A model generated the notes under the pieces. That model saw nothing but the letters and a program-made list of their open reading frames with translations, did no database searches and was not told the DNA's origin. This document shows, one piece after another, positions 9,903-33,569 of a stretch of 62,453 nt of DNA; position 1 is the stretch's first letter; each line of letters begins with the position of its first letter. Made by a program: the position numbers and the translations under genes. Location: contig JAFOMI010000005.1 of NCBI GenBank assembly GCA_017418945.1, positions 1 through 62,453 on the forward strand, written 5' to 3'. Source of the DNA: Bacilli bacterium (GTDB taxonomy: Bacteria; Bacillota_I; Bacilli_A; RF39; UBA660).

Positions 9903-11594
9903 TTACATTTTTTCAGGTATTTCTATACCTAATAAATTACATCCTACTTTTAATACATTCATAACTATAGAGATTAAATAAACTCTTGAATTTCTTTCGT
10001 CTATATCATCACTTAAAATCTTAAATGTATTATAGTATTCACTATAAGTTTGTGCTAATTTAATTAAATATCTAGATAAGATATATGGTTCATTTTTATC
10101 TATAACTTCTTTTAATACATTATTAAAATTATATATTTGTTTAACTAAGTCATAAGATAAATCATCATGTAATTTATCATATTTAACATCATTAATCAAT
10201 ACTTCAGTATTAAGTTTACGTAAAATACTCTTTATTCTAACACACATATATTGAATATATGGACATGTTTCTCCTTGAAATTCAAGCATTTCATCTATAT
10301 CAAATACTTCATCTTTAATTCTTGAATTATATAAATCTCCAAATATGATTGCTCCAATACCAACTTTCTTAGCAACTTCATCAATATCTTCTAAATCAGG
10401 ATTTTTTTCTAGTATCTTATCTTTTGCTTTAGAAACTGCATCTTTAATAATATCTTCTAGTTTAATAAAGTTACCTTTTCTAGTAGACATCTTACCTTCT
10501 TTTAATCTATACATACCATAAGATACATGAACTAATCCATTAACATATTTAGGATCTAAATCAAGATATTTTGCTACTGCAAATACTTGTTTAAAATGAA
10601 GTTCTTGTTCATAACCTGTTACATATATTGATTTATCATAATCATATGTTTTTGCTCTATACATAATTGCCGCTAAATCACGAGTTGCATATATACTTGA
10701 TCCATCACTTTTTTCTATAATACAAGGTGTATTAATTCCATCTTCTTCAAGATTAACTATTTTAGCACCTTGACTTATTTCTAATTTATTATTCTTTTCT
10801 AGTATTTTAATAATATTTTCTTTTGCATCTACGTATGAAGCTTCACCTTTAATACTATCAAATTCAATACCAAGTTTTTTATATGTTTCATAGAATTCAT
10901 CTAAACTTAATTCTCTAAACTTTTTCCATAAAGATATACAGTAAGGATCTCCTTCTTCTAAAAGTTTAAAGTTATTTCTACATCTTTCTAATACTTCAGG
11001 ATTCTCACATTCTTGGTTTATTCTAACGTATATTTCAACTAATTTATCTATAGGATCAGTAGATAAATCATATTCATTACCCCATAATTTGTATCCCTCA
11101 ATTAATTTACCAAATTGAGTTCCATAGTCTCCTAAATGATTTATACCAACAGTATTATATCCTAAATATTTATATATATTATATAATGCATGTCCTATCA
11201 AAGTTGTTCTCATATGACCTATATGGAATGGCTTTGCAATATTAGGAGATGAATATTCAACACATACAGTTTTACCGTTTGATTCTTCTTTACCAAAATG
11301 ATCTTTAGTATTTTCATATTCTTCAAATACTAATTTAGTTAAATATTCTTTATTAATATAAAAATTTAAATAACCATTAACACTTTCTATTTTTTCTACT
11401 ATTGGAGAATTAATTGAATCTTTTAATTCATCCGCAATTACCATTGGTGCTTTATGTAATTCTTTTGCAAGTATAAAACATGGAAAAGTATAGTCACCTT
11501 TTTCTTTCTCTTTAATTTCCTTAATTAAATCATATGTCTTAATGTTTACTTTTTCGTCTAATAAATTAGATAACTCTTTTTTTAAATCAACCAT
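9903..11594 (-). CDS. argS: Arginine--tRNA ligase
   Basis: 563 aa with class I HIGH (PFHIGHMR) and KMSK-like (KMSTRKG) motifs. Confidence 0.95.
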   Translation of the reverse strand: MVDLKKELSNLLDEKVNIKTYDLIKEIKEKEKGDYTFPCFILAKELHKAPMVIADELKDSINSPIVEKIESVNGYLNFYINKEYLTKLVFEEYENTKDHFGKEESNGKTVCVEYSSPNIAKPFHIGHMRTTLIGHALYNIYKYLGYNTVGINHLGDYGTQFGKLIEGYKLWGNEYDLSTDPIDKLVEIYVRINQECENPEVLERCRNNFKLLEEGDPYCISLWKKFRELSLDEFYETYKKLGIEFDSIKGEASYVDAKENIIKILEKNNKLEISQGAKIVNLEEDGINTPCIIEKSDGSSIYATRDLAAIMYRAKTYDYDKSIYVTGYEQELHFKQVFAVAKYLDLDPKYVNGLVHVSYGMYRLKEGKMSTRKGNFIKLEDIIKDAVSKAKDKILEKNPDLEDIDEVAKKVGIGAIIFGDLYNSRIKDEVFDIDEMLEFQGETCPYIQYMCVRIKSILRKLNTEVLINDVKYDKLHDDLSYDLVKQIYNFNNVLKEVIDKNEPYILSRYLIKLAQTYSEYYNTFKILSDDIDERNSRVYLISIVMNVLKVGCNLLGIEIPEKM

Positions 11595-12074: not shown

Positions 12075-13997
12075 ATGAAAAACAGAAGATTATTATTAAA
12101 AATATTTATTATTTTAATTGCTTTTATATGTCTATTTTTTTCAATTATGTATATGTATGTTAAATTATCTCCTAAACTAGATTTAAAGAAAACAAATAAC
12201 ATAATTATATATGATAAAAATAATAAAGAATTCTTTAGGGGAAATGGATCAAAAGAATGGATAGATTTAAAAGACATAGATAAAGACTTAATAAATGCGA
12301 CAATATCTACTGAAGATAAAAGATTTTATAAACATAATGGTTTTGATTATATTAGAATAATAAAATCATTCTTTATAAATTTAAAATCCGGCTCTATTGA
12401 AGAAGGTGCTTCAACAATAACACAGCAATATGCTAGAAACTTATATCTAACATTTGATAGAACTTATAAAAGAAAAATTAAAGAAGCATATTTAGCTTTT
12501 AAAATGGAAATTAATTATTCAAAAGATGAAATACTAGAAGGTTATTTAAATACAATTAATTATGGTAATGGAGTATTTGGAATAGAAAATGCTTCTCATT
12601 ATTATTTTAATAAAAGTGCAAAAAATTTATCTTTGGCAGAAGCTTCTATGCTTGCGGGTATTCCAAAATATCCACAGGAATATTCACCTATAAATAATAT
12701 TAAAAGTGCTAAAAAAAGACAAAAACAAATTTTATATAATTTATATAAAAATAAAATAATTACTAAAAAAGAAATGAATGATGCATATAAAGAAAACTTA
12801 ACTTATTATGGGAAAAAAGAAACTTTAAACTTAACAACGTTAATGTATTATAAAGATGCAGTTATGAATGAATTAAATGAATTAAAAATTATTCCAAATG
12901 ATTATTTAAATAATAATAGTATAAAGATATATACTAATCTAGATTTAGAAGCTCAGCAAGAATTAGAAAATGCAATTAATAATAATATAAATGAAGATAG
13001 TGAATTACAAGTTGCAAGTTCATTAATAGATAATAAAACTGGAAAAATAATTGCTTTAGTTGGTGGAAAAGATTATGAAAAAAGTCAGTTTAATAGAGCT
13101 ATATCATCTAAAAGGCAAATAGGATCTACTATTAAACCATTTTTATATTACACTGCACTAGAAAATGGTTTTACACCATCATCTTCATTCTTATCAACAG
13201 ATACTTCATTTAATCTTCAAAATGAAGTTTATAAACCAAGTAACTATGGAGATATATATCCAAATAAAAAAATACCTATGATAATAGCACTTGCATATTC
13301 AGATAACATTTATGCATTAAAAACAAATCTCTTTTTAGGAGATAATGCTCTTGTTAATACTTTAAATAAAGTTGGAATTAAAAATGTTAATAATAATGTA
13401 TCACTACCTCTTGGGACTAATGAAATGAATATCATAGATTTAACAAATGGATATTCAACATTAGCAAGTGAAGGAAACTATAAAAATACATATTTAATAA
13501 GAGCAGTTAAAAATAACAAGAATCACTTATTATATGAACATAGAATTAATAAAAAGAAAGTATTAGATAATAATTTTACATTTATTCTAAGTGAATTATT
13601 AAATAATTGCTACGATAATAATCTTGTAGATTATAGTGAACCTACTTGTCTAACAATTAGACCTAAACTAACAAAAAAATACGCAATAAAAACAGGAAGT
13701 ACTAATACAGACTCTTTAATAGTAGGTTATAATAAAGATTATACTTTAGGAACTTGGGTTGGATATGATAATAATATTAATCTAAAAAAAGAAGATACTA
13801 AAGTAGCTAGAAATATATGGGCAGATACAATAGAAAATTATTTAAGAGATAAAGAAGATAAATGGTTTGATAAACCTAAAGATGTTAATGCAGTTTTAGT
13901 AAATCCATTAAATGGATATCTTGCAACTAACAATTCAAAAAGAAAAAAATTTATTTATTATTTAAAAGGTACAGAACCTAAAACTATAGACAAATAA
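12075..13997 (+). CDS. Class A penicillin-binding protein (glycosyltransferase + transpeptidase)
   Basis: Has an N-terminal TM helix, GT51 motifs (EDKRFYKHNGFD, GASTITQQ), and transpeptidase SxxK (STIKP), SxN (SDN) and KTG (KTGST) motifs. It is the only plus-strand gene in the left replichore of this window. Confidence 0.9.
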   Translation: MKNRRLLLKIFIILIAFICLFFSIMYMYVKLSPKLDLKKTNNIIIYDKNNKEFFRGNGSKEWIDLKDIDKDLINATISTEDKRFYKHNGFDYIRIIKSFFINLKSGSIEEGASTITQQYARNLYLTFDRTYKRKIKEAYLAFKMEINYSKDEILEGYLNTINYGNGVFGIENASHYYFNKSAKNLSLAEASMLAGIPKYPQEYSPINNIKSAKKRQKQILYNLYKNKIITKKEMNDAYKENLTYYGKKETLNLTTLMYYKDAVMNELNELKIIPNDYLNNNSIKIYTNLDLEAQQELENAINNNINEDSELQVASSLIDNKTGKIIALVGGKDYEKSQFNRAISSKRQIGSTIKPFLYYTALENGFTPSSSFLSTDTSFNLQNEVYKPSNYGDIYPNKKIPMIIALAYSDNIYALKTNLFLGDNALVNTLNKVGIKNVNNNVSLPLGTNEMNIIDLTNGYSTLASEGNYKNTYLIRAVKNNKNHLLYEHRINKKKVLDNNFTFILSELLNNCYDNNLVDYSEPTCLTIRPKLTKKYAIKTGSTNTDSLIVGYNKDYTLGTWVGYDNNINLKKEDTKVARNIWADTIENYLRDKEDKWFDKPKDVNAVLVNPLNGYLATNNSKRKKFIYYLKGTEPKTIDK

Positions 13998-14020: not shown

Positions 14021-14965
14021 TTATTTTTCTATTTTTATTATAAATTCATATAACTTATCAAATTCATAACTATCATAAGTAGATACAAATCCTTCTTCTT
14101 TTAAAGAATTAATAAATTCTTTTACTTTTTCTTGCAATATATCTCTTTTTGATTCATCATTTTCTTCAATCATAATAGGTTCATCATTAATAGTTTCTAT
14201 TTCTCTTTCTTCATTTATATTTCTTAATGATTCCATAGGTACATTATTTATTACTTTTTCTTTAGGCTTATCAAAGAAAGAATCAAAATTTAATGAAGGT
14301 TCTGTTTTAATTTCTGTTTTGATTTCTGTTATATTTGAAACAGGTATATATTCTTCATTATTAATATAACTATTTATTAAATTTTCTGTTTCTCTAACAT
14401 TTAATCTTTCATTCATTATTCTATTTAAAATTTCTACTTGTTCATCTTCATTTTCTATTTTAAGTAAACTTCTAGCATGTCTTTCACTAATCTTATTATT
14501 TAATAATGCATCTTGAACATCATTTGATAAATTTAATAATCTTAATTTATTAGAAATTGAACCTTGAGTTTTACCCATTCTTGATGCTAATTCATCTTGT
14601 GTTAAATATCCTCTATCTAATAATTTTTTATATGACTTTGCTTCTTCAATTGGAGATAAATTTTTTCTTTGAATATTTTCTACAATTGCTACTTCAGCAG
14701 ATTCATTATCATTTAAATCAATAATTATTGCAGGCACTTTAGTTAAACCAGCAATATAAGAAGCTTTATATCTTCTTTCACCTGCAATTATTTCATATTT
14801 AGTTCCGACTTTTCTTAAAACTAAGGGTTGAATAATTCCATGTTGTCTTATTGATTTTGCAAGTTCATTTAATGCATCTTCATCAAAAGATAATCTTGGT
14901 TGAAAACGGTTTGGAATAATATCATCTAACGATACTTCAATTATTTCCTTTTCCATATTATTCAT
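14021..14965 (-). CDS. noc: ParB/Noc-family CTP-dependent DNA-binding protein, Noc-like
   Basis: Has the IPNRFQPR box, a GERR arginine patch, and an HTH (TQDELASRMGKTQGSISNKLRLLNL...KISERHARSL). By eye the HTH resembles B. subtilis Noc (GKGQSTIANKLRLLKL...KITERHARAL) more than Spo0J. The C-terminus (EFDKLYEFIIKIEK) is also Noc-like. It lies directly downstream of rsmG. Confidence 0.8.
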   Translation of the reverse strand: MNNMEKEIIEVSLDDIIPNRFQPRLSFDEDALNELAKSIRQHGIIQPLVLRKVGTKYEIIAGERRYKASYIAGLTKVPAIIIDLNDNESAEVAIVENIQRKNLSPIEEAKSYKKLLDRGYLTQDELASRMGKTQGSISNKLRLLNLSNDVQDALLNNKISERHARSLLKIENEDEQVEILNRIMNERLNVRETENLINSYINNEEYIPVSNITEIKTEIKTEPSLNFDSFFDKPKEKVINNVPMESLRNINEEREIETINDEPIMIEENDESKRDILQEKVKEFINSLKEEGFVSTYDSYEFDKLYEFIIKIEK

Positions 14966-15028
14966 AATAATCCCTCACTTTTTATTCTATTCTTATATAT
15001 TTATAATAATATAATAAAAATCCATTTT

Positions 15029-15733
15029 TTACAATGGATTTTTTTTAATTTCACTAAATTTTCTAGGATATCTTTTTTTATTATTCCCTACTTTTTTTAT
15101 AACAGGTAAATTTCTAATACTACCTTCAATTGGTAAATTAAAAGTAATTAATTTTTCAAGAGTTGAATTCATAGTTTCTATTGTACTTTCAGCTTCTTTT
15201 AATTCTTCATCTAAAGTTGCTTTTAAAGGAATAAAATATCCATTTACTTTAACTAGTGGCATACATATTTCTACTAATATATTTAATCTTGCAAAAGCTC
15301 TACTAGTTACAATATCATATTTTTCTATATTATTTCTTGCAAATACTTCTGCTCTTTCATTACAAATAAATATATTATCTAATCCTAATTCTTTTTTTAC
15401 TAAGAATAGAAAATCTACTCTTTTTCTTAGTTTTTCAACAAGAGTTACTTTTAATTTTGGAAAACATATTGCTAGAACTATTCCAGGAAAACCTGCACCT
15501 GTTCCTACATCACATAAACTAACTTCTTTTTTTAAATTATATGCTTTTATTAAAGTTAAACTATCATAAAAATGTTTTAAATATACTTCTTCTTTTTCAA
15601 CAATTCTTGTTAGATTAACATTTTCATTATAACTAACTAATAATTCATATAAACTTTCTAATTTTTTCATTTGATCTTTAGTTAAAGTTATATCTAATTT
15701 TTTTACTTCTTCATTAAAACTATTTATATTCAT
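15029..15733 (-). CDS. rsmG: 16S rRNA (guanine527-N7)-methyltransferase
   Basis: GidB family with [10 protein letters not shown], and it overlaps the end of mnmG. Confidence 0.92.
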
Positions 15734-17641: not shown

Positions 17642-18814
17642 TTAATTTAAAAAATCTTTTAAATTTTTAACTTCTTTTTTTCTATATAGCAAATATAATG
17701 CTTTTTCTTCATTTTGTCTAATTCTTTCTCTTGAAATATTGTAATCATTAGATATTTCTTCTAATGTCATTGGTCTATTTCCATCTAAACCAAACCTTTT
17801 TATAATAACATCTTTAAGTCTTTTGTTTCTACTATTAGTACGTAGATTGCTTGTATTTGTATCAAAAGTTTCATTTAGTATTTTCATTAATTTACTTCTT
17901 AATTCACTTTTTTCAACATTATCTATTGCTTTTTCATAATTAGTGTCTGGAATAAAATTTAATAATTCATCTGATTTATCATCATCTGCTTTTAATTGTT
18001 TATTTAAACTATTATAAGAATAATTGTATTTTAAAGCATTTATAACATCAAGTTCTTCTAATTCAGTTATTTTAATTAAATCTTCTACACTAGGACTCTT
18101 ACCATTATTATTTTTTAAATACATAGATGTTGCTATTCTAATCTTATTTATTTTTACATTTAAATTTGCTGGTATTCTAATGATTTCATTTGTATTATAT
18201 ATTGCTTTTCTAATTGTACATTTTATCCACCAAGTTGCATAAGTAGATAGCTTTAAATTTTTATCTAATTCAAATCTATCTAACGCCTCTATTAAACCAA
18301 TTGTACCTTCTTGAATTAAATCTTTATAATCAATACCTCTACCTACAAAATTCTTAGCAATTGAAGCTACTAATCGTAAATTAGATTCAATTAATATTTC
18401 TCTGGCTTGCATATCCCCATTCTTATATTTTTCAAGTAATTCTCTCTCTTTTTCAGGACTTAAAATAGGAATTCTTGAAATATCTTTTATATAAGAAGTA
18501 GATGTAGTATCCTCTATTTCAACATTTAAATCTATTTGTTCATCCATGTCTTCAATTGAATAATCTTTATAAATAATATAATTTTTAATAAAAACTTTTA
18601 TAGTATGATTTGTTAAACCATTATAAAATTTTTCAAACTTTTCTTTATTTATAAAACTATCTATAACATAATCATTTATTAATTCTTCTAATAAGTCATT
18701 TAATCTTGATTTTCTTTCTAATATTTCTAATATTTCATCATCAGATATATTAGGATTTATATTTTCTTTTTTAAAAATAGTTTCTAATGTTTTAAATACA
18801 TCTTCTTTTTTCAA
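17642..18814 (-). CDS. Divergent RpoD-like (group 1/2-type) sigma-70 factor
   Basis: 390 aa. Has region 1.2/2 (YIKDISRIPILSPEKERELL, NLRLVASIAKNF, DLIQEGTIGLIEALDRFE, STYATWWIKCTIRKAI), region 3 (IRIPANLNVKINKI) and region 4.2 (TLEEISNDYNISRERIRQNEEKAL). It ends with NLKDFLN, as RpoD does. Confidence 0.85.
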   Translation of the reverse strand: MKKEDVFKTLETIFKKENINPNISDDEILEILERKSRLNDLLEELINDYVIDSFINKEKFEKFYNGLTNHTIKVFIKNYIIYKDYSIEDMDEQIDLNVEIEDTTSTSYIKDISRIPILSPEKERELLEKYKNGDMQAREILIESNLRLVASIAKNFVGRGIDYKDLIQEGTIGLIEALDRFELDKNLKLSTYATWWIKCTIRKAIYNTNEIIRIPANLNVKINKIRIATSMYLKNNNGKSPSVEDLIKITELEELDVINALKYNYSYNSLNKQLKADDDKSDELLNFIPDTNYEKAIDNVEKSELRSKLMKILNETFDTNTSNLRTNSRNKRLKDVIIKRFGLDGNRPMTLEEISNDYNISRERIRQNEEKALYLLYRKKEVKNLKDFLN

Positions 18815-18887
18815 TTAAAGCACCTCTCTTTTTCGTAAATTATATTATATATATTTATAAAAAAAAGTCAAAAGAAAAACAAAATAT

Positions 18888-19811
18888 TTAAATAATATAT
18901 TTTGCTTCTTTATTATTATAAATAATATCATATAAATTGTTAATTAAAGTACAATTTAATTTATATTTATCAATTATTACCTTAACACTAGATAATGTAT
19001 TTAAACCTTCTATAGTATCTTTTATTTCTTTGTGAACATGATCTAAATCATAACCTTGCCCAATTAAAATACCCGCTCTTTTATTTCTACTCTTTTCACT
19101 AATTGATGTTAGATATAAATCACCAATACCCGCTAATCCATAAAAAGTACTTTCTTTTGCACCAAGTTTTAATCCTATTTCTTTTATTTCTCTTATTCCT
19201 TCAGTAAAAACATATGAATCTACATTAATTCCATAATTTAGTCCTTTAACTATTCCACTTATTAATGCTATAACATTTTTAAGAGCTGAACAAACTTGTA
19301 AACCTATAATATCATCATTATATGTTATTTTTAAATTATCATTCTCTAAATATTTTATTAATTCTTTATTACCTGATAACTCAACAAATGTTTTATTATC
19401 TGTACCTAATTCAGACGCAAATGATGGACCCATAATAATATTTGTTTCTTTTCCTAATTCCTCTTTTATAACATCTGATAATAATTTTTCATTCTCTAAT
19501 CCTTTTGACGCTAATAGTATTTCTTGATTATTAATATATTTTTTTATATCTTTACAAGTACTTCTAACAAAATTAGATGGCACTACTATTACAACTATTT
19601 CACTATCTTTTAATGCCTCTTCATAATCTAGATAACACTTTGTATTATTATTTAATTTAATACTAGGTATTTGCATGCATTCATGATTTATATTAATTGA
19701 ATCTCTCTCTTCTTTTGTAAAAGACCATATTTTAACATTATTATTTTTTTCAAATGAATGAGCTAATGCACACCCAAAACTACCACTACCAATTATTGTA
19801 ATATTTTTCAT
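18888..19811 (-). CDS. gpsA: NAD(P)H-dependent glycerol-3-phosphate dehydrogenase
   Basis: Has a Rossmann N-terminus (ITIIGSGSFGCALA) and GpsA-like motifs (GLKNVIALISGI, AGIGDLYLT). The start is the ATG at 19811, just after the mnmE stop. Confidence 0.88.
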   Translation of the reverse strand: MKNITIIGSGSFGCALAHSFEKNNNVKIWSFTKEERDSININHECMQIPSIKLNNNTKCYLDYEEALKDSEIVVIVVPSNFVRSTCKDIKKYINNQEILLASKGLENEKLLSDVIKEELGKETNIIMGPSFASELGTDNKTFVELSGNKELIKYLENDNLKITYNDDIIGLQVCSALKNVIALISGIVKGLNYGINVDSYVFTEGIREIKEIGLKLGAKESTFYGLAGIGDLYLTSISEKSRNKRAGILIGQGYDLDHVHKEIKDTIEGLNTLSSVKVIIDKYKLNCTLINNLYDIIYNNKEAKYII

Positions 19812-19816
19812 AATTC

Positions 19817-21154
19817 CTACTTTCCTAAACAAAATCTACTAAATATTTTATCTATTAATTCATTATCATAACTATCTCCAGTTACTTCTCCTAAATAATC
19901 TATTATATTTTTTATGTCTATTTCAAGCATATCTATTGGAATATTATTATTTAAAGCTTCAACTAGATTATTTGAAGCTTTTTTAGCTTTCTTTAATAAA
20001 GATATTTCTCTTGCATTTGAAATATAAGTCATATCTCCATCATTAATTTCATCTAATTTAAATAATTCATTTATTTTATTTAATAATTCTTCAATATCAT
20101 TATTTTCCGCACTTACTGATACATGATCTAAATCTAATATTAATTTACTATCTAAATCTTTTTTATTAACAACAATAATTCTTTTTTTATTCTTTGTTTT
20201 TTCAAGTAAATCTTTATCTTCATCAGTTAATTTCTCATTATTATTTAATACTAATAATACTAAACTAGCACTATCTAATAAAGATAAACTTTTTTCTACT
20301 CCAATTTTTTCCACAGTATTTGTTGTTTCTCTTACTCCTGCGGTATCTAAGAAATTAATTAAAACACCATTAATTCTAATACTTCCTTCTACTATATCTC
20401 TTGTTGTTCCTGGTATATCTGTTACTATTGCTTTATCTTCATCTAATAATCTATTTAATAAAGAACTCTTTCCAACATTTGGTCTTCCTATAATAACAGT
20501 ATTAATTCCTTCTTTTATAAGTTTTCCACTTTCAGAAGTCTTTAATAAATCATCAATCTCACTATTTAATTCATTAGAAAATCTTTTTATATCCTCAATT
20601 GTCATTATCTCTATATCTTCATATTCTGGATAATCTATATTAACTTCTATATTTGATATTAAATTCAATGCTTTATCTCTTAATTTTTTTATTTTACTTG
20701 ATAATCTTCCTTCTACACCAGATATTGCTAATTTTCTTGCACTTTCAGTTTTGGCATCTATTAAATCCATTACAGATTCAGCTTCTATTAAATCTATTCT
20801 ACCATTTAAAAATGCTCTTTTAGTAAATTCACCTGGTTCTGCAAGTCTTGCACCATTTTCAAGTAATAATTCTAAAATCTTATTAGTAACAGATATTCCC
20901 CCATGAGTATTTATTTCTATTATATTTTCTTTAGTATAAGTTTTTGGAGCTAAGAATACTGAAATTAAAACTTCATCTATTACTTTACCGTTTTCAATAA
21001 TATGTCCATAGTTAATAGTATTTGATTTAAATGAATATATATTTCTATCAAATATTTTATTTACAATTTCAAGAGCTTCATCACCACTAATTCTAACAAT
21101 TGAAATTGCTCCTACACCTTGTGCTGTTGAAATAGCTGCAATAGTATCGTACAT
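19817..21154 (-). CDS. mnmE: tRNA modification GTPase MnmE (TrmE)
   Basis: Has a G domain (GRPNVGKSSLLN, DTAG, NKKD) and the C-terminal CLGK motif. Confidence 0.97.
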   Translation of the reverse strand: MYDTIAAISTAQGVGAISIVRISGDEALEIVNKIFDRNIYSFKSNTINYGHIIENGKVIDEVLISVFLAPKTYTKENIIEINTHGGISVTNKILELLLENGARLAEPGEFTKRAFLNGRIDLIEAESVMDLIDAKTESARKLAISGVEGRLSSKIKKLRDKALNLISNIEVNIDYPEYEDIEIMTIEDIKRFSNELNSEIDDLLKTSESGKLIKEGINTVIIGRPNVGKSSLLNRLLDEDKAIVTDIPGTTRDIVEGSIRINGVLINFLDTAGVRETTNTVEKIGVEKSLSLLDSASLVLLVLNNNEKLTDEDKDLLEKTKNKKRIIVVNKKDLDSKLILDLDHVSVSAENNDIEELLNKINELFKLDEINDGDMTYISNAREISLLKKAKKASNNLVEALNNNIPIDMLEIDIKNIIDYLGEVTGDSYDNELIDKIFSRFCLGK

Positions 21155-32616: not shown

Positions 32617-32644
32617 AAAAAATATTTCCCGGGAAATATTTTTT
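32617..32644. promoter_or_regulatory. Noc-binding-site (NBS) type palindrome, copy 1
   Basis: A perfect 28-bp palindrome, AAAAAATATTTCCCGGGAAATATTTTTT. Its core TATTTCCCGGGAAATA equals the published B. subtilis NBS consensus ATTTCCCGGGAAAT. Confidence 0.7.
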
Positions 32645-32656
32645 ATAAAAATTAAA

Positions 32657-32678
32657 TAATGTTTCACGTGAAACATTA
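32657..32678. promoter_or_regulatory. parS centromere-like site 1
   Basis: A perfect 22-bp palindrome, TAATGTTTCACGTGAAACATTA. Its core at 32660-32675 matches the Firmicute parS consensus TGTTNCACGTGAAACA. Confidence 0.8.
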
Positions 32679-32719
32679 AAAAAATTGACTTATTAAATAA
32701 TAAATAGTATATTATAAAT

Positions 32720-32816: not shown

Positions 32817-33221
32817 ATGAATGAAAATAAAATATTAAATGAATTAAATAAACTTTTAAATAAAGCAATAAAGCATAATGAAGTACCAGTTGCAGCATTA
32901 ATAATTTATAAAAACAAAATTATTTCAAAAGCTTATAATAAAGTTAATAAAAAAAATAACATTTTAAATCATGCAGAAATCATAGCAATTAAAAAAGCTT
33001 CAAAAAAATTAAAAAATTGGAGATTAAATGATTGTATTTTATATGTAACATTAGAACCATGTGATATGTGTAAATCAATTATAAAAAAAACTAGAATTAA
33101 AAATATAGTTTATTATTCAAAACAAAATTTAAATAAAACAGAAAATGATCCTATATATTTTTATAAAGAAAATATTATATTTTCCACTTTATTAAAATCA
33201 TTTTTTCAATCAAAAAGATAA
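32817..33221 (+). CDS. tadA: tRNA adenosine(34) deaminase
   Basis: Has CDA-fold zinc motifs (HAE in NHAEIIAI, PCDMC in LEPCDMCKSII). It sits next to ffs and dnaX, as in Bacillus. Confidence 0.88.
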   Translation: MNENKILNELNKLLNKAIKHNEVPVAALIIYKNKIISKAYNKVNKKNNILNHAEIIAIKKASKKLKNWRLNDCILYVTLEPCDMCKSIIKKTRIKNIVYYSKQNLNKTENDPIYFYKENIIFSTLLKSFFQSKR

Positions 33222-33237
33222 TGTTTCACGTGAAACA
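33222..33237. promoter_or_regulatory. parS site 2
   Basis: TGTTTCACGTGAAACA, starting at the nucleotide right after the tadA TAA stop. Confidence 0.8.
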
Positions 33238-33256
33238 TGGTTTCATTTAGTTTTAA

Positions 33257-33272
33257 TGTTCCACGTGAAACA
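33257..33272. promoter_or_regulatory. parS site 3
   Basis: TGTTCCACGTGAAACA, identical to the classical B. subtilis parS 16-mer and exactly 35 bp after site 2. Confidence 0.8.
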
Positions 33273-33291
33273 TAGTTTTATTTTAATTTAA

Positions 33292-33307
33292 TGTTTCACG
33301 TGAAACA
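33292..33307. promoter_or_regulatory. parS site 4
   Basis: TGTTTCACGTGAAACA, exactly 35 bp after site 3. Confidence 0.8.
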
Positions 33308-33414
33308 TACAATACGATATCAATCAATGTTTCATAAAAGAGCAAAACATAGTATTAATTATATTTTATAAATTTTATAAAATTTAAATGCGAAAATTTT
33401 ATTTAAAAAATACC

Positions 33415-33442
33415 AAAAAATATTTCCCGGGAAATATTTTTT
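33415..33442. promoter_or_regulatory. Noc-binding-site (NBS) type palindrome, copy 2
   Basis: A 28-mer, AAAAAATATTTCCCGGGAAATATTTTTT, identical to copy 1. Confidence 0.7.
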
Positions 33443-33455
33443 ATGAATTAGATAG

Positions 33456-33477
33456 TAATGTTTCACGTGAAACATTA
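33456..33477. promoter_or_regulatory. parS site 5
   Basis: TAATGTTTCACGTGAAACATTA, identical to the 22-mer of site 1. It lies 13 nt after NBS copy 2. Confidence 0.8.
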
Positions 33478-33569
33478 CTGTTTTTTTATAAAAAAATAGT
33501 CCAGAAACCCTTTATTTATATAGAATTTTAAACAAAATGTGATATAATTAACATGAAAGGAAAATGTAT

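What the first reader, a model, noticed from the sequence alone, without database searches (positions are those of the whole stretch)
14021..14965. The only ParB-family gene here is Noc-like, lacks the Noc membrane-targeting helix, and has no soj/spo0J partner at the canonical rsmG locus
In Bacillus the order is rsmG-noc-soj-spo0J. Here rsmG is followed by a single ParB-family gene and then a convergent PBP gene. I aligned its HTH by eye to B. subtilis Noc and Spo0J as I remember them. At the four positions reported to switch parS/NBS specificity (ParB-type R-T-A-G, Noc-type Q-K-K-R) it has Q-K-N-R (GKTQGSISNKLRLLNL...SERHA). That is Noc-like at three positions, and Asn is novel at the fourth. 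IPNRFQPR and the C-terminal ...EFDKLYEFIIKIEK also resemble Noc. However, the protein starts about 7 residues before the conserved box and lacks anything like the N-terminal amphipathic helix (MKHSFSRFFGL in B. subtilis) that Noc needs for membrane recruitment. It also carries an acidic insertion of about 90 aa before the C-terminal domain. With five parS and two NBS sites 18 kb away, this raises two questions: which protein reads parS, and what a membrane-helix-less Noc does.
Basis: partly seen in the sequence, partly recalled or inferred. Interest (0 to 1): 0.65.

Follow-up and report, generated by a model that had tools for sequence, protein, structure and literature searches.

The report
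Noc variant lacking its membrane helix
This gene encodes the Noc-type (not ParB-type) DNA clamp of a large group of uncultured gut bacteria. It lacks the N-terminal membrane anchor thought essential for Noc and has an anchor-like motif inside a long acidic linker. Relatives encode a normal ParA/ParB pair elsewhere, so it is an unusual variant of a known protein and probably not a stand-in for ParB.

Summary
ORF 14021-14965(-) is the only ParB-family gene in the 62-kb oriC window. It follows rsmG and has Q-K-N-R at the four specificity positions. A stop three codons upstream of the ATG rules out a hidden N-terminal helix. Five perfect parS and two perfect NBS sites lie 18 kb away.

A tree places the protein in the Noc clade, apart from Spo0J. 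All 150 best 50%-identity clusters share its build: a short N-terminus, Q173 and R201, and a long acidic disordered linker. The linker holds a conserved [KR]FFxx[FL] or FxxFF motif that mirrors the N-terminal anchor of canonical Noc.

Published work says one lysine at position 179 or 184 is enough for NBS specificity, so the Asn matters little.

The "sole ParB" idea is weakened. About a third of family members keep noc-soj-spo0J. In a relative from the sister branch of the non-adjacent clade, canonical soj-spo0J lie 9.6 kb downstream of the helix-less Noc on the same contig. The closest whiA relatives of this genus have whiA-soj-spo0J.

For this genome itself no Spo0J was found in the window. 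None was found in about 115 kb of sister-species flank either.

Verdict: a new variant of a known kind; interest moderate.

The parts
14021..14965 (-). noc-like gene, 314 aa. It belongs to the helix-less, long-linker Noc family.
   Evidence: ORF. Pfam ParB_N plus HTH_ParB. TIGR04285 scores 277 bits against a cutoff of 315. Noc clade has 95% SH-aLRT support.
14971..14976 (-). Ribosome-binding site GAGGGA, 5 nt before the ATG. An in-frame TGA at 14975-14977 blocks any N-terminal extension.
   Evidence: Sequence and translation.
14669..14947 (-). N-terminal CTP-binding (ParB_N) domain, aa 7-99. It holds PNRFQPR, GERR (R65 corresponds to Noc R89) and ENIQR (N97 corresponds to Noc N121).
   Evidence: The roles of R89 and N121 come from PMC8429893.
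14369..14665 (-). HTH_ParB DNA-binding domain, aa 101-199. The specificity residues are Q134, K140, N145 and R162.
   Evidence: The roles of the residues come from PMC7383237.
14159..14350 (-). Acidic disordered linker, aa 206-269, net charge -8.
   Evidence: AlphaFold pLDDT is below 50. Composition.
14264..14293 (-). Linker motif LNFDSFFDKP, aa 225-234. It is of F-x-x-F-F type and resembles the SFSRFF of canonical Noc's N-terminus.
   Evidence: F227 and F231 are nearly invariant in close homologues. Family-wide motif enrichment is and the N-terminal comparison.
14024..14158 (-). C-terminal domain, aa 270-314: a helix plus a beta-hairpin. It is probably the dimerisation domain.
   Evidence: AlphaFold secondary structure. 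Conserved across the family.
15029..15733 (-). rsmG (gidB), the upstream neighbour.
   Evidence: Pfam GidB, E 1.8e-49.
12075..13997 (+). Class A PBP, convergent with the noc-like gene. It sits where soj-spo0J would be.
   Evidence: Pfam Transgly plus Transpeptidase.
32623..32638 (.). NBS 1, TATTTCCCGGGAAATA, a perfect site.
32660..32675 (.). parS 1, a perfect site 21 bp after NBS 1.
33222..33307 (.). Three parS sites (33222, 33257, 33292) at 35-bp spacing, directly after the tadA stop codon.
33421..33436 (.). NBS 2, a perfect site.
33459..33474 (.). parS 5, a perfect site 22 bp after NBS 2.

Best explanation
This is the Noc orthologue of a large clade of uncultured, very AT-rich gut Bacilli.

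Shown:
- It has the ParB/Noc fold.
- It has intact CTP-binding motifs.
- It has Noc-type base-reading residues (Q173 and R201, with permissive K179).
- It lies in the Noc clade.
- Perfect cognate NBS sites are present in its own genome.

Inferred:
- It nucleates on the two NBS sites beside the origin-proximal parS array and closes into a CTP-dependent clamp.
- It does not read parS.
- parS is read by a separate canonical Spo0J, working with Soj. In this lineage an ancestral rearrangement moved those genes away from noc, and in this genome they lie outside the window.

The N-terminal membrane-targeting helix is absent throughout the family. In its place the long acidic inter-domain linker carries a short conserved aromatic motif. 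The motif reads [KR]FFxx[FL]E.E in most members and NFDSFF here. It copies the pattern of the canonical N-terminal anchor: RFFGLGEKE in Bacillaceae, MSKFFTFL in an Erysipelotrichaceae Noc.

My preferred mechanism is that this relocated motif is the effector tether. It would link the NBS-loaded clamp to the membrane or to a docking partner, and it would no longer be gated by packing against the CTP-binding domain. The identity of what it binds is not shown.
For: Family and specificity:
- TIGR04285 (Noc) is the best NCBIfam hit, 277 bits against 175 for generic ParB.
- PDB Noc chains score 187-206 bits, against 161-172 for the Firmicutes, H. pylori, T. thermophilus and M. xanthus ParB chains; Caulobacter ParB scores 122.
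- In the IQ-TREE tree the Noc clade has 95% and the Spo0J clade 96% SH-aLRT support, and the window protein lies inside the Noc clade.
- Q173 and R201 are present in 150 of 150 representative clusters and K179 in 140 of 150. GERR and ENxQR are present in all 150 and PNRFQPR in 148.
- Jalal 2020 reports that Q173 reads A1 and R201 reads C6, and that one lysine at 179 or 184 suffices. It also reports that R173 and G201 are invariant in ParB and that dual readers mostly have T or S at 201.
- Perfect NBS and parS sites are both present.

Clade-wide loss of the helix:
- 144 of 150 representatives have 14-19 residues before the box.
- Canonical Noc proteins in my loci keep MKxxFSRFFGLG.

Linker motif:
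- [KRSGN]FFxx[FLMIW] occurs in 61 of 146 linkers, against 3.8 (maximum 10) in shuffles.
- It is present in the x2, x1 and A subclades.

Coexistence with ParAB:
- 22 long-linker loci from species-representative genomes have noc-soj-spo0J, with a canonical Spo0J (RRALGRGLEELF N-terminus; R at 173 in 21 of 22 and G at 201 in 17 of 22).
- 25 of 80 soj-spo0J loci from metagenomes have the long-linker Noc gene directly upstream, and 25 are detached.
- One 448-kb contig carries rsmG, a helix-less Noc (513 aa, QKNR), 9.6 kb of other genes, then soj-spo0J.
- WhiA of the sister species groups at 99% with lineages where whiA is followed by soj-spo0J.
Against: - The protein scores below the curated Noc cutoff (277 against 315). 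Only model positions 1-199 of 255 match.
- The defining N-terminal anchor is missing. In B. subtilis, Noc lacking those 10 residues cannot bind liposomes or complement.
- The internal motif sits in a strongly acidic context. Its net charge is -1 to -3, against +2 for the canonical anchor. The window's variant has a lower hydrophobic moment, 0.38 against 0.50. Binding to an anionic membrane is therefore doubtful.
- No Soj or Spo0J was found for this genus. Neither turned up in the 62-kb window or in about 115 kb of sister-species flank. ychF, rpsF, ssb and dnaB were also absent from both.
- Two profile searches did not surface a Spo0J that I could tie to this genus.
- Only two NBS sites were seen. 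None occurs in the 115-kb flank of the sister species. A genome-wide occlusion role is therefore not evident.
- Nothing here is experimental.
Confidence: 0.6

Rival explanations
1. Sole ParB-family protein. This genus would have lost soj-spo0J, and the helix-less Noc (alone or with an unknown factor) would serve both NBS and parS. It would then be a two-in-one centromere-binding and occlusion protein.
For: No second ParB or ParA was found in the window. None was found in about 115 kb of flanking sequence of the sister species. At the position where the closest relatives have whiA-soj-spo0J, this genus has whiA-Abi_2-htrA followed by a defence island. NBS and parS sit 21-22 bp apart.
Against: Q173 and R201 are the NBS-specific states. 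R173 and G201 are invariant in real ParB proteins, and dual readers mostly carry T or S at 201. Five perfect parS sites in a 24% GC genome imply a dedicated reader. The missing block also contains essential genes (rpsF, ssb, rpsR, dnaB), so it must have moved and cannot simply have been deleted. Every relative in which both genes could be seen has a separate canonical Spo0J. The window's contig ends inside secA, so much of the genome is unseen.
Confidence: 0.12
2. Same protein identity, different effector. The helix-less Noc never touches the membrane. Its linker motif would be a docking peptide for a protein partner, such as a division, replication-initiation or SMC/ParB-associated factor. 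The protein would organise or regulate the origin region next to ParB-parS and would not perform nucleoid occlusion.
For: The motif is embedded in an acidic, proline-rich disordered linker. It sits at a variable distance from the folded domains, which is typical of a short linear docking motif. The NBS sites seen are origin-proximal and paired with parS. No NBS occurs in 115 kb of flank. From my own knowledge, S. aureus Noc has been reported to influence replication initiation.
Against: The motif pattern is the same as the proven membrane-targeting peptide of canonical Noc and the N-terminus of an Erysipelotrichaceae Noc. No candidate partner was identified. The NBS census covers only about 15% of a genome of roughly 1.2 Mb.
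Confidence: 0.25
3. A decaying or functionless Noc remnant that lost its anchor.
For: It lacks the element needed for Noc function in B. subtilis and falls below the NCBIfam cutoff.
Against: The exact protein recurs on 16 metagenome contigs. About 100 columns are invariant across 41 homologues, including all catalytic and DNA-reading motifs. The same build is shared by all 150 best clusters at 50% identity. Perfect NBS sites are retained.
Confidence: 0.03

Closest known systems
Noc (YyaA) of Bacillus subtilis and Geobacillus thermoleovorans (TIGR04285; PDB 7OL9, 7NFU, 7NG0, 6Y93)
   Same: Position after rsmG. ParB_N, HTH and C-terminal domain architecture. PNRFQPR, GERR and ENxQR CTP motifs. 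Q173, K179 and R201. An identical 16-bp NBS site in the genome. 206 bits to 7NG0. Same clade in the tree.
   Different: It lacks the N-terminal 10-aa amphipathic helix, alpha2 and the loop (22 residues fewer). It has N in place of K at position 184. The linker is about 55 aa longer here, and up to about 500 aa longer in relatives. The linker is acidic and disordered and carries an anchor-like motif internally. The two NBS sites seen are paired with parS at the origin and are not scattered. soj-spo0J do not follow it.
Spo0J/ParB of Firmicutes (TIGR00180; PDB 6SDK, 4UMK)
   Same: Same superfamily fold and CTP-clamp motifs. About 40-50% identity over 200 aa.
   Different: Q and R at positions 173 and 201, in place of the invariant R and G. 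No N-terminal LG(R/K)GL ParA-activating peptide. No adjacent ParA. It falls outside the Spo0J clade (96% support).
Noc of an uncultured Erysipelotrichaceae bacterium (locus L084) and of Limosilactobacillus alvi (L088)
   Same: Members of the Noc clade outside Bacillaceae. The L084 N-terminus, MSKFFTFL, has the same K-F-F-x-F-L pattern as the linker motif of the long-linker family.
   Different: In those proteins the motif is at the N-terminus and the linker is short. Here the N-terminus is bare and the motif is internal.
Staphylococcus aureus arrangement (noc next to rsmG, parB elsewhere, no parA). This is from my own knowledge. A 2026 preprint abstract returned speaks of an 'incomplete partition system'.
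   Same: It is a precedent for noc and parB being unlinked in Bacilli.
   Different: As far as I know, S. aureus Noc keeps the N-terminal anchor. Relatives of the present organism keep ParA.

Membership tests
Noc (nucleoid occlusion protein, TIGR04285) | ParB_N plus HTH_ParB plus C-terminal dimerisation domain | tested here: met
   Pfam. The AlphaFold model has folded regions 1-205 and 270-313.
Noc (nucleoid occlusion protein, TIGR04285) | Curated NCBIfam score cutoff | tested here: not met
   277.4 bits against a cutoff of 315. Only model positions 1-199 of 255 are matched.
Noc (nucleoid occlusion protein, TIGR04285) | NBS-specificity residues Q173, K179, K184 and R201 | tested here: met
   The protein has Q-K-N-R. 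The two base-reading residues and one permissive lysine are present, which Jalal 2020 found sufficient. Binding itself was not measured.
Noc (nucleoid occlusion protein, TIGR04285) | Cognate NBS sites in the same genome | tested here: met
   Two perfect 16-bp NBS sites in the window.
Noc (nucleoid occlusion protein, TIGR04285) | N-terminal 10-aa amphipathic membrane-targeting helix | tested here: not met
   17 residues precede the PNRFQPR box, against 39 in B. subtilis Noc. An in-frame stop lies three codons upstream of the ATG. The helix is absent in 144 of 150 family representatives.
Noc (nucleoid occlusion protein, TIGR04285) | CTP-binding and clamp motifs (GERR R89, ENLQR N121) | tested here: met
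   GERRY and ENIQR are present and invariant in the family. Activity was not measured.
Noc (nucleoid occlusion protein, TIGR04285) | Phylogenetic placement with Noc and apart from Spo0J | tested here: met
   Noc clade 95% and Spo0J clade 96% SH-aLRT support.
Noc (nucleoid occlusion protein, TIGR04285) | Membrane recruitment of DNA and inhibition of division over the nucleoid | not testable with these tools
   This needs liposome, localisation and genetic assays.
Chromosomal ParB/Spo0J | R173 and G201 parS-reading residues | tested here: not met
   Q and R at those positions. R and G are invariant in ParB.
Chromosomal ParB/Spo0J | N-terminal LG(R/K)GL ParA-stimulating peptide and an adjacent parA | tested here: not met
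   The N-terminus is MNNMEKEII. No Soj hit occurs in the window. Spo0J proteins of relatives have RRALGRGLEELF.

The most novel reading that the evidence does not exclude
In this clade Noc may have been repurposed from a genome-wide nucleoid-occlusion factor into an origin-specific partner of ParB. NBS and parS sites set 21-22 bp apart would load two different CTP clamps side by side. The helix-less Noc would use a relocated anchor motif in a long acidic tether, no longer gated by the CTP domain, to attach the origin region to the membrane or to a division or replication factor. In the extreme form, this genus has lost Soj-Spo0J altogether and something other than a canonical ParB keeps the parS array under selection.
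Probability: 0.2. Interest if true: 0.8.

Novelty: new variant of a known kind. Interest (0 to 1): 0.55.

Why it matters
The current model of Noc rests on an N-terminal amphipathic helix whose exposure is gated by CTP. Removing that helix abolishes function in B. subtilis.

Here a very large natural family lacks the helix. All 150 best clusters at 50% identity share this build, and they come from human, ruminant, rabbit and rodent gut metagenomes. The family keeps every DNA-reading and CTP motif and its exact NBS target. It also carries an anchor-like peptide in a different place.

If the internal motif works as a tether, the membrane switch can be rebuilt outside the CTP-gated N-terminus. If it does not, Noc has a function that needs no membrane binding.

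Either result would bear on how ParB-family CTP switches diversify. The family offers a natural 'N-terminal deletion' Noc to test.

The rearrangement history also adds another lineage in which the ancestral Firmicutes ORI gene cluster has been broken up. Here noc-soj-spo0J was split by insertions of uvrB-whiA and larger blocks.

Tried and rejected
2. Profile searches of the protein collection with Spo0J of relatives. The 120 rows shown were saturated by other lineages, and none could be tied to this genus. The one candidate I looked up (P0393) was a different organism in different samples.
3. Contig walking from the window's left end through sister-species contigs. I covered about 115 kb: rpoBC, tilS-ftsH, rpsLG-fusA-tuf, eno, secG, rnr, smpB, nrdD, dapA, uvrBA, lgt, whiA, Abi_2, htrA and a defence island. 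No soj or spo0J was found, and tblastn found no remnants.
4. Walking right failed because the contig ends in secA.
5. Linking Noc and Spo0J of one MAG through neighbouring NCBI accession numbers gave no overlapping block.
6. Exact look-up via RpsR was rejected because RpsR differs between genera.
7. A UvrB tree to assign detached loci to subclades was unresolved. The WhiA tree was informative.
8. A hidden upstream start was rejected.
9. Dual specificity caused by N184 was rejected on published mutational data.
10. A second structure prediction on a relative with the consensus motif was dropped. Many relatives use non-ATG starts, and the tool gives no contact information.
11. I could not re-test the earlier claim that NBS-parS pairing is conserved in over 100 species. 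My loci do not cover the gyrA-tadA-dnaX region. Laid metagenome contigs only hint at it.

Full report
WHAT IS THERE

The window is a 62-kb oriC region with 23.8% GC. It runs from rplL through rnpA, dnaA, dnaN, gyrBA and dnaX to secA. The ORF at 14021-14965(-) encodes 314 aa with Pfam ParB_N (aa 7-99) and HTH_ParB (aa 101-199). It follows rsmG and meets a convergent class A PBP.

A ParB-family HMM and a Soj query were run over all six-frame ORFs of the window. They hit only this gene.

The start codon is secure. A GAGGGA ribosome-binding site lies 5 nt upstream, and an in-frame TGA lies three codons before the ATG.

The exact protein recurs on 16 metagenome contigs, many of them from ruminant gut samples (coded runs that hold the stretch include sheep and bovine gut metagenomes), always in the same context.

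There are five perfect parS sites and two perfect 16-bp NBS sites at 32.6-33.5 kb. Each NBS lies 21-22 bp upstream of a parS.

IS IT NOC OR PARB?

- NCBIfam ranks Noc (TIGR04285) first at 277 bits. This is below the curated cutoff of 315, because only model positions 1-199 of 255 match. Generic ParB scores 175 bits.
- Against solved structures, Geobacillus and B. subtilis Noc score 206 and 187 bits. The Firmicutes, H. pylori, T. thermophilus and M. xanthus ParB chains score 161-172 bits; Caulobacter ParB scores 122.
- In an IQ-TREE tree of 123 N-terminal plus HTH regions, Spo0J forms one clade (96% SH-aLRT). Noc forms another (95%). The Noc clade contains Bacillaceae Noc, Erysipelotrichaceae and Lactobacillaceae Noc, and a 73-member 'long-linker' family (89%) that holds the window protein.
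- At the four specificity positions the protein reads Q-K-N-R.

Jalal et al. 2020 (PMC7383237) make three relevant points:
- Q173 reads adenine 1 and R201 reads cytosine 6 of NBS.
- A single lysine at 179 or 184 is enough to license them.
- R173 and G201 are invariant in ParB, and dual-specificity variants mostly carry T or S at 201.

The Asn at position 184 is therefore not a novel specificity state. It is the family norm: 119 of 120 close homologues and 127 of 150 representative clusters. The protein is predicted to be NBS-specific. The CTP motifs (PNRFQPR, GERR, ENxQR) are invariant. Their roles are documented for Noc R89 and N121 (PMC8429893).

THE MISSING HELIX IS A FAMILY TRAIT

The 150 best clusters at 50% identity are 227-785 aa long and score 259-411 bits. 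All align from their residues 1-5, and 144 of them have only 14-19 residues before PNRFQPR.

Canonical Noc proteins in my loci keep MK..FSRFFGLGEKE. An Erysipelotrichaceae Noc starts MSKFFTFL and a Limosilactobacillus Noc starts MAFSLFNFG.

In B. subtilis, Noc lacking the first 10 residues neither binds liposomes nor complements a delta-noc delta-minCD strain. By that standard this family should be inactive in classical occlusion.

THE LINKER

In the window protein, aa 206-269 are predicted to be disordered (pLDDT below 50). This stretch has net charge -8 and is about 55 aa longer than in B. subtilis Noc. It is followed by a confident helix plus hairpin C-terminal domain.

Across the family the median linker is 221 aa, rich in E, N, P and D. 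It contains a short conserved motif: [KRSGN]FFxx[FLMIW] occurs in 61 of 146 linkers, against 3.8 (maximum 10) in shuffles. The consensus is NKFFNFLEDE. The motif occurs in all three subclades.

The window protein has the F-x-x-F-F variant, LNFDSFFDKP (aa 225-234). F227 and F231 are nearly invariant among close homologues. Some close homologues also have KGFGLGK just before it.

The pattern matches the canonical N-terminal anchor: [KR]-F-F-x-[LF]-x-E-x-E compares with RFFGLGEKE, and it equals MSKFFTFL of L084. I read this as the anchor peptide relocated into the linker.

A caveat applies. The motif's local charge is negative (-1 to -3, against +2). The window variant's hydrophobic moment is lower, 0.38 against 0.50. 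Membrane binding is therefore plausible but not assured, and a protein-docking role is a serious rival.

WHO READS parS?

A scan of species-representative genomes gave 80 loci. Twenty-two long-linker genes are followed directly by soj and a canonical spo0J. That Spo0J has an RRALGRGLEELF N-terminus. It has R at 173 in 21 of 22 and G at 201 in 17 of 22. Forty-seven others plus the window protein form a clade (80%) in which soj-spo0J are not adjacent. This clade splits into x1 (98%) and x2, which holds the window.

A metagenome scan with the Spo0J profile gave 80 soj-spo0J loci:
- 25 have the long-linker Noc gene directly upstream.
- 25 have none within at least 3.5 kb upstream.
- 30 are too short to tell.

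The detached loci sit after whiA or after tilS-ftsH. They are followed by mscS, abgT, ychF, rpsF and ssb.

One 448-kb contig (L189) carries both genes. Its order is rsmG, a 513-aa helix-less Noc (QKNR, GKFFTMF motif), KilA-N, uvrB, lgt, trxB, tilS, ftsH, soj and spo0J. The gap between the Noc gene and soj is 9.6 kb. Its Noc belongs to x1 (99% with L046).

For the window's own genus I walked about 115 kb from the left end on sister-species contigs (88-89% Noc identity). I found uvrB-uvrA-lgt-whiA followed by Abi_2, htrA and a defence island, but no soj or spo0J. tblastn finds no remnant of soj, spo0J, ychF, rpsF, ssb, rplI or dnaB.

WhiA of this genus groups at 99% with lineages (L144, L114) where whiA is followed directly by soj-spo0J-mscS-abgT-ychF-rpsF-ssb-rplI-dnaB. 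That block contains essential genes, so in this genus it has moved and has not simply been deleted. I could not find where it went.

The window's right end is a contig break inside secA in the source sample. The 115-kb sister-species contig appears, from coordinates, to end near the same point.

Given five perfect parS sites in a 24% GC genome, I put about 80% on a canonical Spo0J being encoded elsewhere.

MECHANISM AND VERDICT

Shown:
- Noc-clade identity.
- Noc-type reading residues.
- Intact CTP motifs.
- Cognate NBS sites.
- Family-wide absence of the N-terminal anchor.
- A conserved anchor-like motif in the disordered linker.
- Coexistence of the family with canonical Soj-Spo0J.

Inferred:
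- NBS-specific, CTP-dependent clamping next to ParB-parS at the origin.
- The linker motif acting as the effector tether.
- A separate Spo0J in this genome.

I found no paper describing such Noc proteins. Garcia et al. [quoted passage not shown]

This is a new variant of a known kind. The 'only ParB' framing is true of the window but probably not of the genome.

Noticed in passing
L017:9920 and L053:9909 (noc-like gene match begins at 10001 in both): A near-perfect NBS (one mismatch) lies about 80-90 bp upstream of the noc-like gene in two relatives. This could mean autoregulation by the gene's own product. The window's own gene has no such site.
   Followed up: no
Alignment A1 columns about 270-330 (linkers of close homologues P0019-P0120): Close homologues carry 1-5 tandem copies of a P-x-IEDKVYP repeat in the linker. 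The window protein keeps only a degenerate trace (…EIETINDEPIMIEE).
   Followed up: no
window 17642-19832: A 390-aa sigma-70-family gene and a gpsA-like gene are inserted between mnmE and mnmG. These two genes are normally adjacent.
   Followed up: no
window 62453 (right end, inside secA); L202: The source sample's contig ends at the same point inside secA; by my coordinate arithmetic the 115-kb sister-species contig ends near there too. This suggests a repeat, such as an rRNA operon or an IS element, just beyond it.
   Followed up: partly
window 32620-32707, 33192-33323, 33412-33499: When gut-metagenome contigs are laid on this stretch, depth jumps 3-7 fold exactly over the NBS and parS sites. 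Many contigs diverge immediately outside them. Many other organisms in these samples therefore share the same site sequences. No listed strain variant falls inside a site.
   Followed up: partly
L101:10997-20942, L107, L102: In the sister species whiA is followed by Abi_2, an HtrA-like protease and a strain-variable defence island. The island holds an integrase, a 934-aa RelA/SpoT-domain protein, type I/II R-M, GmrSD, Fic and HNH genes. This is the position where relatives have soj-spo0J.
   Followed up: partly
L157, L159, L162, L182: In one lineage soj-spo0J sit directly beside rnpA, divergent from the rnpA-yidC-jag-mnmE-mnmG-rsmG string. They occupy the place where dnaA normally lies.
   Followed up: no
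L189:8573-9926: A KilA-N/Bro-N-type gene, typical of phages, sits between the noc-like gene and uvrB. It hints that mobile DNA took part in splitting noc from soj-spo0J.
   Followed up: no
L192-L201:11466-12584: An IS605 OrfB/TnpB (Cas12f-like) gene lies two genes downstream of spo0J in the P0393 organism.
   Followed up: no
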